Below, one piece after another: positions 27,826 through 32,415 of a stretch of 64,000 bases of DNA; position 1 is the first letter of the stretch, and each line of letters begins with the position of its first letter. The position numbers were made by a program, and so were the translations under genes. This stretch comes from an uncultured Candidatus Rokubacteria bacterium (GTDB lineage Bacteria; Methylomirabilota; Methylomirabilia; Rokubacteriales; CSP1-6). The notes below the pieces were generated by a model. That model saw only the letters and a list, made by a program, of their open reading frames with translations. It ran no database searches and was not told the DNA's origin. Location of the stretch: contig CAVYTA010000006.1 of NCBI GenBank assembly GCA_963771355.1, positions 1,248,001-1,312,000 on the forward strand, in the 5' to 3' direction.

Positions 27826-28299
27826 TCAGCCGCCTCCGTCCAGGCGGGCCTCGGCCAGGCGGGTCTCCATGACGAGCGCGTCCTCGCCGGTGTCGAAGTA
27901 GTACCCCTTCCGCCGGCCGATCACGCTGAAGCCCAGGCTCTCGTAGAGCCCCAGGGCCTCCGAGTTGGTGGGGCGCACTTCCAGGAACGCGAGCGTGACG
28001 CCGCGGCCGCGGCCGTCCTCCAGCACGCTCTGGATCAGGCTCCGGGCCAGCCCCTGGCGTCGCCGGTCGGGATGCACGGCCAGGTTGGTGATGTGGATCT
28101 CGTGACCGATCTCCCACAGGCAGAGATAGCCGAGCAACCGGCCCTCGAGACGGATGACCAGGCAGCGGGCCACCCGATTCTGCATGATCTCGTACCGGAA
28201 GGCGGCGCGCGACCACGGCGTCTTGAACGACAGGCGCTCGATGTCGAGGACCTCGTCGAGGTCCTCCAGCGCCATGGGGGCGAGCGCCAGCGCTCGCAT
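27826..28299 (-). CDS. rimI: ribosomal protein S18 alanine N-acetyltransferase
   Basis: IERLSFKTPWS, EIHITNLAVHP..RRQG, FLEVRPTN, RRKGYY..EDALVM; follows tsaB. Confidence 0.92.
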   Translation of the reverse strand: MRALALAPMALEDLDEVLDIERLSFKTPWSRAAFRYEIMQNRVARCLVIRLEGRLLGYLCLWEIGHEIHITNLAVHPDRRRQGLARSLIQSVLEDGRGRGVTLAFLEVRPTNSEALGLYESLGFSVIGRRKGYYFDTGEDALVMETRLAEARLDGGG

Positions 28300-28985
28300 C
28301 ACGCGGTTCGCCGCGCCTTGAGCTCGGCCTCGGACGGCCGCAGGTAGAGGGGCGTCACCGCCTCCGCCGCGATCCCGTGACCGGCGGCGAGCATGGCGTG
28401 CCCGAGCTGGGCCACCGTGGCCGGCGAGGGCAGCCGCCGCGCCGGCGGCGCCTCGCGCACGCCCCCGCCCATCCGCGCCAGATACGGACGGCACGCGGGC
28501 ACTCCGTCGCCCAGCACGATGACGGGCGCCACCAGCTTCGCCGCCACCGCCTCGGGCGAGAGCGCCAGATAGTCCCACTCGCGTGTCATCTCGCACTCCC
28601 GCCACCGGTAGAGCGAGCAGAAGACCTCACCCTTGCGCGCGTCGAGCAGGGGGCAGACCGGCGCGTCCGCGAAGGGCAGCGTCGCGGCCAGCGCGTCGAG
28701 CGTGGGCACCGGGGCCACCGGCAGCCCCAGCGCCAGGGCCAGGCCCTTGACGGTGGCGATGCCCACGCGGAGCCCCGTGAACGAGCCGGGGCCGATGGAA
28801 ACCGCGAGCCCCTCCAGCTCCTTTGCCGACCAGCCACAGTCGGTCAGCAGCCGGTCCACCACCACCATCAGGCGCTCGGAGTGCGTGAGCGCGATGGACA
28901 CCGTGGTCTCTCCCACGAGGCGGTCACCGTCCAGCAGCGCGGCGCCTCCCGAGAGGGTGGCCGACTCGATCGCCAGGATCTTCAT
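28299..28985 (-). CDS. tsaB: tRNA t6A biosynthesis protein TsaB
   Basis: ILAIESAT, HSERL, GPGSFTGLRVG, DARKGEV, PLYLRPSEAE. Confidence 0.95.
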   Translation of the reverse strand: MKILAIESATLSGGAALLDGDRLVGETTVSIALTHSERLMVVVDRLLTDCGWSAKELEGLAVSIGPGSFTGLRVGIATVKGLALALGLPVAPVPTLDALAATLPFADAPVCPLLDARKGEVFCSLYRWRECEMTREWDYLALSPEAVAAKLVAPVIVLGDGVPACRPYLARMGGGVREAPPARRLPSPATVAQLGHAMLAAGHGIAAEAVTPLYLRPSEAELKARRTA

Positions 28986-29076: not shown

Positions 29077-29763
29077 ATGACCCCGCCGCCCTCGCGCAAA
29101 GACAGCGAAACCATGGACGCGGAGGTGCGCGAGAAGATTCATCTCGAGATCCTCAAGCGCACCGGCGCCTACCACGCCAACGACCACATCCTCCTCCCGT
29201 CGGGCCAGCACACCACGGAGTACATCGAGAAGACCCTCGTCACCACCGAGCCCTCGTTCACGGAGGGGCTGGGCGCGGTGATCGCCAAGCACTTCGCCCC
29301 CTGGCCCATCGACGTGGTGGTGTCGACGGGGCCGGGCGCGCTCATCCTCTCCCACTGCGTGGCGCGCGCGCATCCCTCGCGGCCCACCGTGCTGTACGGC
29401 ACCAAGGGGGTGAGCGGCGGGAAGCGCCGCGTGACGCTCCCGGTGGAGTTCCACCGCCTCATCCAGCCGAACACCAAGGTCCTGGTGGTGGAGGACCTCG
29501 TGAGCTCGGGCGCGACGGTGCGACTGCTCACCGAGCTCGTGGAGAGCCTGGGCGGCAAGATCGTCGGGATCGGCGCCCTCTGGCGTCGGACCAAGCGCAG
29601 CGACGTCGACGGCAAGACCATCTTCAGCCTCGTGAGCCGCGACTTCCCGACGTACCCGCCGGAGAGCTGCCCCCTCTGCAAGAAGGGCATGCCGCTCAAT
29701 CGCGAGTTCGTCAAGCGACGCGACGAGCGCAAGCCGTCCACCGCCGAGGAGGACGACGAGTAG
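29077..29763 (+). CDS. pyrE: type I phosphoribosyltransferase, orotate PRTase-like
   Basis: HILLPSGQHT, VEDLVSSGAT PRPP loop, CPLC tail. Confidence 0.7.
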   Translation: MTPPPSRKDSETMDAEVREKIHLEILKRTGAYHANDHILLPSGQHTTEYIEKTLVTTEPSFTEGLGAVIAKHFAPWPIDVVVSTGPGALILSHCVARAHPSRPTVLYGTKGVSGGKRRVTLPVEFHRLIQPNTKVLVVEDLVSSGATVRLLTELVESLGGKIVGIGALWRRTKRSDVDGKTIFSLVSRDFPTYPPESCPLCKKGMPLNREFVKRRDERKPSTAEEDDE

Positions 29764-29843: not shown

Positions 29844-29872
29844 TTGACAGCATTTTTTCACCCCCTTAGAGT
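29844..29872 (+). promoter_or_regulatory. near-consensus sigma70 promoter
   Basis: TTGACA-17 nt-TAGAGT in a locally AT-rich stretch. Confidence 0.75.
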
Positions 29873-29925
29873 CCGAACTGTCCTAACTCCGCACGACGCG
29901 CGCGGATCGGGAGGGAGGTGACACG

Positions 29926-29964
29926 ATGGCGAAGAAGAAGGCTACGAAGAAGAAGAAGAAGTAA
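29926..29964 (+). CDS. 12-aa poly-lysine micropeptide MAKKKATKKKKK
   Basis: GGAGGTG SD 5 nt before ATG, own promoter, TAA stop. Confidence 0.6.
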   Translation: MAKKKATKKKKK

Positions 29965-30185
29965 GGCGCCTACGTAGTGGCGCTCGGCCCTGTCGGCCCC
30001 ATCCCGGCAGGGCCGAACCATCTCGGCGGATGTCCTGCTCTTGCGCGTACGCGCTCCGTCTCGTCGTCGCTTTCCTCAGACCTCCGATACGCCCCGACTC
30101 GTCCGGCTCCCTTCCCGGTTGTGCTTGTGCTTAAATGCCTTCGTATGACCGACGGCGGGACCCTCCCCGCGCACATCGGCTCGAC

Positions 30186-31886
30186 GTGACGGGGACCCGG
30201 GCCCTCGTCGATCGGCTGACGGCCATCGTCGCGCGGTTCGCCGCCGAGGACGGCAACGAGAAGCTCGGCCTGCTGGACCAACTAGCGAGCTCGCCGATCA
30301 GGTCACCGGCGACTCTCGCGAGGCTCCACGAGGCGCTCTGCTTCCTGCGGGCGTACCCCGACGGCCCCGAGGTCCAGGAGCGGGTGGAGCGCGCGCTGGC
30401 GGCGTTCCCTGCGCGCGTCGCGCGGCTCAGACGGCCGGCCAGGGCGCGGCTCCACGACTCCGGGATCGCGGGCACCAGGCTCGACTACCCGTTCGGCCTT
30501 CCGATGGCGCGCTGGCTCGCGTCGCGCTTCCCGGCCGACGTCGAGGTCGCGTGGCGGCGCTTCGAGGACACCGAGCGGCTGGAGGAGCTGCTTCCCCTCC
30601 TCGTCACCCACCAGGAGAGCGAGGCGTTCAGCGAGGGCGGGCTCCACCCGCGACAGTGGCTCGCGCTGGCCAAGGGCCACCGCTGGCTGAGCGACCTGCG
30701 GACCCTCCTCGAGCTGTTCGAGCGTGCGCCCGTGCCGCTCGCCGCCCGCGACGCGCTTTTCGAGGGCCTGGCGCTGCCGATCGAGTGGCGCCTGCGCGGA
30801 ACGGCGCCGTCCCGCACGCGAGCCGTCCTGCCGGGCGGTCCGCGCTCCATGCACGGGGCGGGGTACGGCGACGGGCTCCGGCGCGGTGGCGTCGACTTCG
30901 CCCGCGAGATCACTCGGCCGCTTCCCCCTCCGCGCCCGGCCGGCCGGGCGCTGAGCCGGTCTCTGATCGATATGGCCCGGGCGTCGATGGCCACCCGGGC
31001 CCGCGAGCTGTACGCCTTCTCGCACCCCAACCCCAACGACGTGCTCGTGGCCGACCCCGGCCGCGGGCTGCGGGTGGCGCTGATCGGCCTGGCGCCGGAG
31101 TTCCGACTGCCGGTCCAGGCGTACTACGCCTTCCTGCTCCTGAAGAACGGCGTCCCCGTGAGCTATGGTGCCGGCTGGGGCATGTGGGGAAGGCTCGAAT
31201 GGGCGCTCAACGTGTTCGAGTCCTTCCGTCAGGGCGAGTCGGCGTTCGTGGCGAGCCAGATCCTGCGCGTCTACTACCACGTCTTCCGCATGCGCGCGGT
31301 GCTCGTGGACCGGTACCAGATCGGCTACGAGAACGAGGAGGCGCTCCGCACGGGTGCCTTTTACTTCTATCGCCGGCTCGGCTTCGGGCCGATCGACCCG
31401 GCGGCGCAGCGTCTGGCCGAGGAAGAGCAGGCGAAGATCGCGCACGACCGGGGATACCGCTCGCCGCCGTCAGTGCTCCGCCGGCTGGCCCAGACCGACC
31501 TGATCCTGCGACTACCGGGTTCCGCGCCCGACCGCGTGACCGCCAGCGCGCTGGCCGCCCTGGTCTCGCGCCGCATCGGACGCGAGTTCGGCGGCGACCG
31601 CCGGGCCGCCCAGCGCGCCGACCGGGCGCGGGTGGCCCGCGCCCTGGGTTCGGCTCTGCCGGCGCGCTGGGCGGCGGAAGAGCGCCGCTGGTTCGAGCGG
31701 CTGACGCCGCTGGTGGCGCTGGTGACCGACCTCGAGCGGTGGCCTCCCAGCGAACGGGCGCGGCTCATGGCCGTGATCCGCGCCAAGGGCGGCCCGAGCG
31801 AGCTCGCGTATCTCAGGAAGCTCGACCGCCACCGGCGGCTCCGGGCTGCCCTCGGCGCGCTCGTGGGCGGAGGCCGGTTGCCTTGA
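30186..31886 (+). CDS. hypothetical protein, possible C-terminal GNAT-like domain
   Basis: Long ORF with ordinary amino-acid composition; FESFRQGES and FYRRLGF motifs; start uncertain (30135 or 30186). Confidence 0.7.
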   Translation: MTGTRALVDRLTAIVARFAAEDGNEKLGLLDQLASSPIRSPATLARLHEALCFLRAYPDGPEVQERVERALAAFPARVARLRRPARARLHDSGIAGTRLDYPFGLPMARWLASRFPADVEVAWRRFEDTERLEELLPLLVTHQESEAFSEGGLHPRQWLALAKGHRWLSDLRTLLELFERAPVPLAARDALFEGLALPIEWRLRGTAPSRTRAVLPGGPRSMHGAGYGDGLRRGGVDFAREITRPLPPPRPAGRALSRSLIDMARASMATRARELYAFSHPNPNDVLVADPGRGLRVALIGLAPEFRLPVQAYYAFLLLKNGVPVSYGAGWGMWGRLEWALNVFESFRQGESAFVASQILRVYYHVFRMRAVLVDRYQIGYENEEALRTGAFYFYRRLGFGPIDPAAQRLAEEEQAKIAHDRGYRSPPSVLRRLAQTDLILRLPGSAPDRVTASALAALVSRRIGREFGGDRRAAQRADRARVARALGSALPARWAAEERRWFERLTPLVALVTDLERWPPSERARLMAVIRAKGGPSELAYLRKLDRHRRLRAALGALVGGGRLP

Positions 31887-32063
31887 CTCTCGTTCCGGGA
31901 GGCGGGTGCGGTGCCCCGTTTCGAACGACGCTGGCGAGAGGTGCGAGCGGCCAAGCGTGTCGGTCTACCCCAGCAGCCACTTACGCGCAAGGTGACGGCG
32001 GGTGCGCCTGAGGCGGATCCCGCTCGGGCCGGCGTCTGCGCCTCGGGGAGTCGGGACCGCTGC

Positions 32064-32294
32064 ATCGGCTGGGGCGTCATCCTCTACGCCGCCGGTCCCC
32101 TCACCCTCGGCCACGTGCTGTACTACAAGGGCGTGAGCGTCGTGGGCGCCGGCCGCGCCGCCATCTTCATGAACCTGATCCCCTTCCTCGTGATCGGGCT
32201 CTCCTGGTTCTTCCTGGGCGAGCGCGTGTACTGGTATCACCTCGTCGGCGCGACCGCAGCCATCGGCGGGGTGGCACTGGCCACCAGCAAATAG
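32064..32294 (+). pseudogene. C-terminal fragment of a DMT/EamA transporter
   Basis: LYYKGVSVVGAGRAAIFMNLIPF..LGERV; no upstream half or proper start. Confidence 0.65.
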
Positions 32295-32415
32295 ATCCCG
32301 CCGCGACGGGACTACCCGGCCTGGACTCCCCGCCTTCTCGCCTTCCCCGCCCTCTTCCCTACCGATTGGTTCCGGGATGGGCCGCGTGCCGCACTCGCGC
32401 GGTAGCCCCGCGCCG

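What the first reader, a model, noticed from the sequence alone, without database searches (positions are those of the whole stretch)
29844..30134. Dedicated promoter driving a 12-aa poly-lysine micropeptide followed by structured RNA
Seen: TTGACA-17-TAGAGT promoter, GGAGGTG SD, then ATG GCG AAG AAG AAG GCT ACG AAG AAG AAG AAG AAG TAA (MAKKKATKKKKK, 8 Lys, all AAG). Hairpins follow at 29966-29983 and 29984-30016, then a pyrimidine-rich tract. Such strong expression signals for a 12-mer are unusual. Inference, three options: a stand-alone polycationic nucleic-acid or ribosome-binding peptide; a Lys-tRNA-sensing leader controlling the downstream gene; or a RiPP-like substrate for the downstream GNAT-like protein.
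Basis: partly seen in the sequence, partly recalled or inferred. Interest (0 to 1): 0.7.

Follow-up and report, generated by a model that had tools for sequence, protein, structure and literature searches.

The report
Polylysine micropeptide with partner acetyltransferase
Nearly all Rokubacteria genomes examined keep a tiny gene for a roughly 12-residue, mostly-lysine peptide, and an acetyltransferase-like gene stays beside it and tracks a threonine in it, so this is likely a minimal DNA-packing peptide that is probably modified by its own enzyme.

Summary
Confirmed: promoter, Shine-Dalgarno (SD), MAKKKATKKKKK (29926-29964) and two hairpins form a ~150-nt stand-alone unit. An SD-led poly-Lys ORF is in 94 of 97 Rokubacteriales genomes, mostly at two loci, with coding-type variation; look-alikes occur patchily in other bacteria and archaea. 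This scan found such genes before on other DNA. The all-AAG codons match genome usage (95%); the 'pyrimidine tract' is eamA/rpmB pseudogene debris; downstream genes vary, so a Lys-sensing leader is unlikely. New here: the downstream 566-aa protein has a predicted GNAT domain, occurs in 46 of 97 genomes, lies within 7.3 kb of a peptide gene in 42 of 46 in several arrangements, and co-varies with a central Thr in the short peptide (40 both, 46 neither, 11 discordant; about 7 of 10 independent tree pairs agree, 0-1 oppose, p~0.016). Best reading: an H1-tail-like polycation (+8) that likely binds and condenses DNA in these small cells, with the GNAT as a likely dedicated acylating 'writer'. Translation, binding and modification are untested; GNAT homologs outside Rokubacteria have no peptide neighbour (0 of 17).

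The parts
29844..29872 (+). sigma-70-type promoter TTGACA-17-TAGAGT
   Evidence: TTGACA-17/18-TAnnnT in 24 of 24 orthologous loci examined (loci were found by DNA similarity that included this region)
29878..29925 (+). 5' UTR; start inferred near 29878-29880; SD GGAGGTGA at 29914-29921, 5 nt before ATG
   Evidence: sequence; RNA-library contigs begin at 29876, 29880, 29883 in three studies (weak hint); GGTGA invariant in 19 of 19 aligned
29926..29964 (+). 12-codon ORF MAKKKATKKKKK (poly-Lys micropeptide, Thr-bearing form; +8)
29966..29983 (+). hairpin 1 (5 bp, variable loop)
29984..30016 (+). hairpin 2 (13 bp), likely terminator or 3' protector without U-tract
   Evidence: 12-bp stem in 24 of 24 orthologs, 10 of 12 pairs invariant so no covariation support; RNA-library contigs end at 30024 and 30026 in two studies
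30018..30024 (+). CCATCTC tail that can pair with the SD
   Evidence: minimum-energy fold; predicted pairing over 0.5 in only 10 of 24 orthologs, inconclusive
30027..30078 (+). decayed 5' end of an eamA transporter gene (approximate ends)
   Evidence: two-step match: window to G002 89% over 54 nt, G002 to the eamA start of G003 84% over 58 nt
30103..30189 (-). internally deleted rpmB (bL28) pseudogene; the 'pyrimidine tract'
   Evidence: tblastn E 8e-7; fuller copies at the same place in G002 and L211
30186..31886 (+). 566-aa protein with a central GNAT-fold domain (about residues 252-450) in a helical scaffold; candidate peptide acyltransferase
   Evidence: AlphaFold pLDDT 96; domain model: 67 Foldseek hits at E<=1e-3, all listed rows GNATs; VIA Z 8-9.8; no Pfam or NCBIfam hit
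31880..31971 (+). remnant of the GNAT-coaD junction found in other Rokubacteria
   Evidence: 70% over 98 nt to L215, E 4e-6
32063..32333 (+). 3' remnant of the eamA gene split by the insertion
   Evidence: 91% over 269 nt to G003; Pfam EamA E 1e-14

Best explanation
This is a stand-alone mini-gene, conserved across Rokubacteriales, whose likely product is an unstructured +8 peptide that probably binds and helps condense DNA like a free histone-H1 tail or an encoded polyamine, and whose Thr-bearing form is likely acylated by the neighbouring GNAT-fold protein. Shown: promoter, SD, ORF and hairpins; near-universal multi-copy conservation; selection for Lys codons; GNAT fold (from a predicted model); repeated linkage of the GNAT gene to peptide genes; co-variation with Thr. 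Inferred: translation at high level; removal of Met; sequence-nonspecific binding to nucleic acid; DNA rather than RNA or polyphosphate as the main ligand; acyl transfer to Lys next to the Ala-Thr-Lys motif (or to Thr itself) that lowers charge and loosens packing. My odds: translated gene 0.93; polyanion binder 0.8; mainly DNA packing 0.5; GNAT acts on the peptide 0.55.
For: Gene: 94 of 97 genomes; in 49 distinct ORF sequences from 53 loci, 384 AAG and 19 AAA but 0 AAC/AAT/CAG/GAG and 2 AGG; starts ATG 33/GTG 15/TTG 1, stops TAA 26/TAG 23. Non-specific binder: 2-3 copies per genome, length 10-23 aa in Rokubacteria, about 34 aa in Ca. Binatus, Lys count free to vary; nearest named Atlas cluster of the 34-aa form carries Pfam HC2 in 20% of members, score 0.81, a lead only. 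Context: Rokubacteria cells 0.3-0.4 um with large genomes, proposed to need 'extensive DNA packaging' (PMC5712423, section 11); synthetic epsilon-oligolysines K3-K10 condense plasmid DNA (PMC2790876 abstract and section 24). Enzyme: GNAT fold, top hits SpeG, GCN5/PCAF, Rv0998; gene within 7.3 kb of a peptide gene in 42 of 46 genomes (coordinates, compared by hand), in at least six arrangements at both peptide loci; 36 of 36 metagenome loci with 3.5 kb on both sides, 58 of 80 in all, 50 of those 58 with ATK. Thr: 40 both, 6 enzyme only, 5 Thr only, 46 neither; tree test about 7 same, 0-1 opposite of 10 pairs, median p 0.016. Three 'enzyme only' genomes have the Thr at position 3 (MATK/MATR); two 'Thr only' genomes hold enzyme fragments. 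In G023 and G080 the Thr peptide is at the locus away from the enzyme, so it is not only physical hitch-hiking. In this genome the rpmB, coaD and eamA pieces around the GNAT gene have decayed while it is intact. Precedent: the GNAT Eis acetylates Lys-rich HupB (PMC11229371, passages).
Against: No proteomic, Ribo-seq, binding or enzyme data. RNA evidence is contigs only: 4 of 8 runs laid cover the unit, and two contigs (X4, X7) cross the promoter. 51 of 97 genomes have no match to the enzyme, so it is dispensable. Homologs in 15 of 151 genomes of another phylum and one Eisenbacteria MAG have no poly-Lys ORF within about 5 kb (0 of 17 loci), so the family's general substrate may be something else. 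The longer 22-23-aa paralogs carry KATK/KATR in five enzyme-less genomes; counting them weakens the test (median p 0.03, range 0.016-0.375). The Thr trait was widened after seeing the MATK forms. G034, G035, G073 have Thr and no enzyme; G021 has the enzyme and no Thr peptide found. The enzyme is in two pieces in G002 and G006 (sequencing error or decay). The putative CoA loop FRQGESA has a conserved Glu351 (92%) where GNATs usually have Gly (recalled). The genome already has spermidine-synthase and five HU/IHF matches.
Confidence: 0.42

Rival explanations
1. The peptide is a real polycation gene (DNA, RNA or polyphosphate binder), but the GNAT is only a neighbour: it sits in an old relA-rpmB-recG gene block, and Thr is a neutral lineage marker or the GNAT acts on another neighbour such as bL28 or the AbiEi-like regulator.
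For: Most arrangements are shuffles around one locus; the copy here came with rpmB and coaD debris; 0 of 17 outside homologs are linked; only about 10 independent pairs; Thr also in enzyme-less long paralogs.
Against: Two separate placements at the other peptide locus (this genome; genus g35 without rpmB); Thr in trans in G023, G080, G216; Thr at position 3 beside a divergent enzyme subgroup; within-genus contrasts agree.
Confidence: 0.3
2. The peptide is a small ribosome- or RNA-associated factor (like bS22, eL41, bTHX, or a hibernation aid) rather than a DNA packer.
For: Second locus lies downstream of relA and converges on rpmB; Patescibacteria look-alikes lie before hpf- or secA-like genes, named by eye from ORF translations; any +8 peptide binds RNA.
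Against: Variable length, variable Lys count and 2-3 paralogs do not fit a fixed pocket; no PDB sequence match for the 22-aa paralog (low power); neighbours differ between phyla.
Confidence: 0.15
3. Lys-tRNA-sensing leader peptide controlling the downstream gene.
For: A run of Lys codons directly followed by two hairpins; eamA downstream in several orthologs.
Against: Downstream gene variable, convergent nrdR in 8 of 24; tandem copies each with own SD; both hairpins fold together in most orthologs; codons ordinary.
Confidence: 0.04
4. Classic RiPP: the peptide is modified and exported as an antimicrobial polycation.
For: GNAT linkage; a lasso-peptide iterative acetyltransferase appears at rank 50 of the fold search (Z 7.8); eamA beside locus A.
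Against: No leader/core split in 12 aa; no conserved protease or ABC exporter seen in the loci; core-gene distribution; acylation would remove the charge needed for killing (inference).
Confidence: 0.05
5. The functional product is the RNA (an sRNA or the minus-strand terminator whose U-rich tail is the AAG run), and the ORF is incidental.
For: Near-invariant hairpin 2; the scan calls a minus-strand terminator at 29983-29966; possible SD-tail pairing.
Against: Start, stop and SD are kept with synonymous swaps; ORFs recur with unrelated hairpins at other loci and phyla.
Confidence: 0.04

Closest known systems
Bacterial histone-H1-like Lys/Ala-rich proteins: Chlamydia Hc1/Hc2 (Pfam HC2 PF07382), Pseudomonas AlgP (KPAA repeats; PMC11894788, passages read)
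   Same: Lys/Ala composition, repeat-number variation, disorder, expected DNA or polyphosphate binding
   Different: 12 aa against 120-350 aa (sizes recalled), no folded domain, several separate mini-genes with own SD, near-universal in the order; no HMM match possible or found
Mycobacterial HupB / Streptomyces HupS Lys-rich tail acetylated by the GNAT Eis (PMC11229371, passages read)
   Same: Lys-rich DNA-binding sequence plus a GNAT; acetylation lowers DNA affinity there
   Different: Tail is fused to an HU domain and Eis has low or unknown specificity; here the 'tail' is free and the GNAT is a different 566-aa family that is genetically linked and tracks one residue
Polyamines with SpeG/SSAT; histone tails with GCN5/PCAF
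   Same: Top fold matches of the domain; same logic of charge neutralisation
   Different: 10-19% identity, atypical motif-A loop, large helical scaffold; a fold shows no substrate
Tiny basic ribosomal proteins bS22, eL41, bTHX (search listing only; properties recalled)
   Same: Very short, basic
   Different: Those are single-copy, Arg-rich and sequence-conserved; these are multi-copy Lys runs of free length
Amino-acid-sensing attenuator leader peptides (recalled)
   Same: Short ORF with a run of one codon before hairpins
   Different: No conserved regulated gene, no competing antiterminator seen

Membership tests
Histone-H1-like bacterial proteins (Hc1/Hc2/AlgP type) | Lys/Ala-rich low-complexity basic sequence | tested here: met
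   403 K and 116 A of 577 residues
Histone-H1-like bacterial proteins (Hc1/Hc2/AlgP type) | Match to the family profile | tested here: inconclusive
   12 aa is too short to scan; 20-, 22- and 34-aa relatives gave no NCBIfam hit; Atlas lead HC2 20%, score 0.81; not scanned against Pfam
Histone-H1-like bacterial proteins (Hc1/Hc2/AlgP type) | Binds and condenses DNA, nucleoid location | not testable with these tools
   needs experiment
GNAT acyltransferases (566-aa protein) | GNAT fold | tested here: met
   on predicted models (pLDDT 96 and 91)
GNAT acyltransferases (566-aa protein) | Motif A loop (R/Q-x-x-G-x-G/A) and motif B (N..A..FY.K.GF), motifs recalled | tested here: inconclusive
   R348 invariant, N383, A391, F394, Y395, G399, F400 conserved; Glu351 replaces the usual Gly
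GNAT acyltransferases (566-aa protein) | Acyl-CoA-dependent transfer | not testable with these tools
   needs assay
RiPP cluster | Precursor linked to a modifying enzyme | tested here: met
   42 of 46 genomes; 36 of 36 full-flank metagenome loci
RiPP cluster | Leader plus core architecture | tested here: not met
   10-14-aa peptides are Lys-rich from end to end
RiPP cluster | Conserved protease or exporter | tested here: inconclusive
   none recognised among flanking ORFs; these were not all scanned against Pfam
Attenuator leader peptide | Conserved co-directional downstream gene related to the amino acid | tested here: not met
   variable, convergent nrdR in 8 of 24; rpmB convergent at the second locus
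Attenuator leader peptide | Mutually exclusive terminator/antiterminator | tested here: inconclusive
   hairpins 1 and 2 co-fold in most orthologs; no systematic search for alternatives
Small ribosomal proteins bS22/eL41/bTHX | Sequence match and single conserved copy | tested here: not met
   2-3 variable copies; no PDB or NCBIfam match for 20-34-aa relatives (low power)
Known ncRNA families | Rfam gathering score | tested here: not met
   0 matches in the window

The most novel reading that the evidence does not exclude
Rokubacteria run a minimal chromatin code: free 10-13-residue histone-tail-like peptides pack the large genome into a 0.3-0.4 um cell, and a dedicated, so far unnamed GNAT family reads an Ala-Thr-Lys motif to acylate the Thr-bearing variant and loosen packing, a writer-substrate pair that is gained and lost together; unmodified forms of the peptide recur across bacteria and DPANN archaea, in some with a poly-acidic partner peptide.
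Probability: 0.3. Interest if true: 0.9.

Novelty: new variant of a known kind. Interest (0 to 1): 0.74.

Why it matters
Genes this short fall below gene-calling limits, and all-Lys peptides vanish in tryptic proteomics (inference), so a core gene of a major soil lineage has likely gone unseen. It offers a cheap, direct test of the open question of how Rokubacteria pack large genomes into very small cells, and gives the first substrate hypothesis, down to one residue, for a large unnamed GNAT-fold family (684 clusters at 50% identity with E<=1e-30). Both partners can be made and assayed without culturing the organism.

Tried and rejected
Rfam and tRNA scans: nothing. Whole 29878-30135 fold not significant (z -1.7). 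Pfam, NCBIfam and PDB sequence searches do not name the 566-aa protein; no plasmid homolog; sampled homologs are 'hypothetical' or unnamed; full-length fold searches gave only weak GNAT rows and generic helical matches, the N- and C-terminal parts stay unassigned. Exact look-up of the 20-, 22-, 34- and 566-aa proteins: none in the collection. Phage scan: 2 hits, both starts of long proteins. Breadth outside the order is patchy with strict patterns: 6 in-frame of 81 genomes in the phylum of a Woesearchaeota MAG, 1 of 81 in the family of Comamonas granuli (42), 1 convincing of 51 in the class of a Nitrososphaera MAG (43), 6 of 51 in the class of Ca. Binatus (44), 1 in-frame of 51 in the order of an Opitutia MAG (45); each count includes the seed genome. 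In the rest of the phylum several families had none with the strict pattern (0 of 18, 0 of 15). 'Polyamine substitute because polyamine synthesis is missing' rejected: two spermidine-synthase matches. Hairpin 2 as a repeated element rejected: single copy. Covariation of hairpin 2: none to speak of. SD-tail pairing: 10 of 24. RNA runs X12, X14, X16, X18 had no contig on the unit, which proves nothing. Thr-peptide genomes outside the order (G447, G222, G540) had no enzyme match. Complex prediction not run: the peptide is below the 30-residue size the tool asks for. Literature: no paper with five exact peptide strings and none describing this; the library lacks most subscription journals, and supplements (smORF catalogues, Supplementary Table 5 of PMC5712423) were not read.

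Full report
Setting. The window lies in a 5.5-Mb, 70% GC genome (G000).

The observation. Promoter (29844-29872), SD (29914-29921), ORF (29926-29964) and hairpins (29966-29983, 29984-30016) are as described. Two details fall away. AAG is 95% of Lys codons in this genome, so eight AAG are expected two times in three. The stretch after the hairpins folds no better than shuffles and is debris: the 5' end of eamA and a deleted rpmB copy on the other strand.

It is a conserved gene. The strict pattern is in 108 of 201 phylum genomes with no control hit; a pattern allowing GTG/TTG starts behind an SD is in 94 of 97 order genomes at least 90% complete, with one control hit. There are two main loci: A, this one, with promoter and hairpin 2 in 24 of 24 orthologs examined; and B, one to three tandem SD-led ORFs after relA, a zincin and an AbiEi-like regulator, converging on rpmB. 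G000 has a 22-aa and a 12-aa copy at B. Across 49 distinct ORF sequences the only common change in Lys codons is AAG to AAA (19, the genome's rate), with no AAC, AAT, CAG or GAG, and starts and stops swap synonymously. In-frame length changes alone would prove little in a triplet repeat; the codon pattern does. RNA-library contigs from four studies cover the unit; three begin at 29876-29883 and two end at 30024-30026, but two cross the promoter and four other runs show nothing, so this is a weak hint of a ~150-nt RNA.

Beyond the order. A scan that stopped after 9 of 64 parts of the GTDB set gave 120 loci; 69 are 8-14-aa ORFs ending in KKK, 47 outside Rokubacteria, 32 of those with an SD against 6.4% of background ATGs. 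They include DPANN archaea, Patescibacteria, Verrucomicrobiota, Armatimonadota and Brocadiales, often with own promoter and terminator. Three of the 47 are the end of a 34-aa Lys-rich ORF in Binatus-type genomes and a few are doubtful. Within those groups the strict pattern is patchy. Common descent cannot be shown for so simple a sequence. Earlier notes of this scan describe the same class on other DNA; I saw them only after these tests.

The downstream gene. At locus A it varies (eamA, convergent nrdR in 8 of 24, others), which removes the leader reading. Yet the 566-aa gene is not a bystander in the simple sense. It occurs in 46 of 97 genomes. Comparing coordinates by hand, it is within 7.3 kb of a peptide gene in 42; two more sit about 2 kb from a contig start, and two distant homologs (38-40%) are unlinked. 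It lies before the AbiEi-like gene, divergent from it, after recG, after coaD, convergent after eamA at locus A, or directly behind locus A as here. In metagenomes 58 of 80 loci, and 36 of 36 with 3.5 kb each side, have a peptide ORF within 3.1 kb; these are close, redundant relatives. Here it arrived in an rpmB-GNAT-coaD block inside eamA, and only the GNAT gene stayed intact. Its central domain has a GNAT fold with an atypical Glu in the motif-A loop.

The threonine. An SD-led KKATKKK ORF is in 45 of 97 genomes: 40 with the enzyme, 5 without; 6 have the enzyme only; 46 neither. Of the 6, three have Thr at position 3 instead, two are the unlinked distant homologs, one (G021) is unexplained. 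Of the 5, G016 has the enzyme's end at a contig edge and G088 a remnant; three remain. On a tree of AbiEi-like plus RecG fragments from 71 genomes (67 of the 97 plus four of the own genus; G176 and one G051 locus left out; G016 and G088 coded as enzyme-less, the split copies of G002 and G006 as present, the position-3 forms as Thr) each trait changes 14 times; of 10 independent pairs about 7 agree, 0-1 oppose, median p 0.016; counting KATK/KATR in the long paralogs gives 0.03. This is real but modest support. Against: 0 of 17 homolog loci from Planctomycetota-level relatives and Eisenbacteria have a peptide neighbour; short Lys-rich matches elsewhere in some of those genomes were not examined.

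How it most likely works. A strong promoter and SD would give much peptide; after Met removal an 11-mer with eight Lys can only act as a disordered polycation. Epsilon-oligolysines of similar charge condense DNA (PMC2790876; abstract and section 24 read; they are not alpha-peptides), Rokubacteria cells were sized at 0.3-0.4 um with large genomes and proposed to need extensive packaging (PMC5712423; passages and section 11 read), and Lys-rich tails of HupB/HupS are controlled by acetylation, in HupB by the GNAT Eis (PMC11229371; passages read). AlgP shows polyphosphate is a rival ligand (PMC11894788; passages read). I therefore commit to a free H1-tail-like nucleoid peptide whose Thr form is acylated by the GNAT (0.42). 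The main rival keeps the peptide but drops the enzyme link (0.3).

Comparison and novelty. It works like H1-like proteins or polyamines with their acetyltransferases but is not shown to be a member of any such family; it fails the leader/core test for a RiPP and the downstream-gene test for an attenuator. My paper searches found no description; supplements were not read. The peptide class is known to this scan; a look-up for peptide plus GNAT found no note with all words, only one where an adjacent GNAT was judged unrelated. The linked, residue-tracking enzyme is the new part. New variant of a known kind; interest 0.74.

Noticed in passing
L051, L147, L160, L162: In 4 of 25 archaeal peptide loci an SD-led poly-Asp/Glu ORF of 15-46 aa lies within 300 nt of the poly-Lys ORF: a possible polycation/polyanion pair, like H1 with prothymosin (recalled).
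   Followed up: partly
L154:2775-2837 (G000 C4:148836, minus strand): A further 20-aa Lys-rich ORF (MAKGTG...KKK) with TATAAT promoter, SD and GC hairpin; a different sequence type, no NCBIfam hit.
   Followed up: partly
window 29915-29920 with 30019-30024: SD can pair with the conserved 3' tail, closing the mRNA ends; predicted in 10 of 24 orthologs. Could allow self-repression.
   Followed up: partly
L062, L068, L138, L173-L177: Binatus-type genomes carry a 34-36-aa Lys-rich ORF between conserved structured 5' and 3' UTRs.
   Followed up: partly
L153:3725-4768: An HTH plus AbiEi_2-like gene precedes the peptide genes at locus B in 72 of 73 loci gathered for the tree, with no partner toxin seen; possible regulator of the peptides.
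   Followed up: no
L050, L071, L111, L141: Patescibacteria-type near-pure poly-Lys ORFs sit just before hpf- or secA-like genes (named by eye).
   Followed up: no
window 29077-29763: Phosphoribosyltransferase-like gene with acidic tail, upstream of locus A (Pfam PF00156); also upstream in G050.
   Followed up: no
window 27826-28985: tsaB and a rimI-like GNAT, ordinary, divergent from the PRT gene.
   Followed up: no
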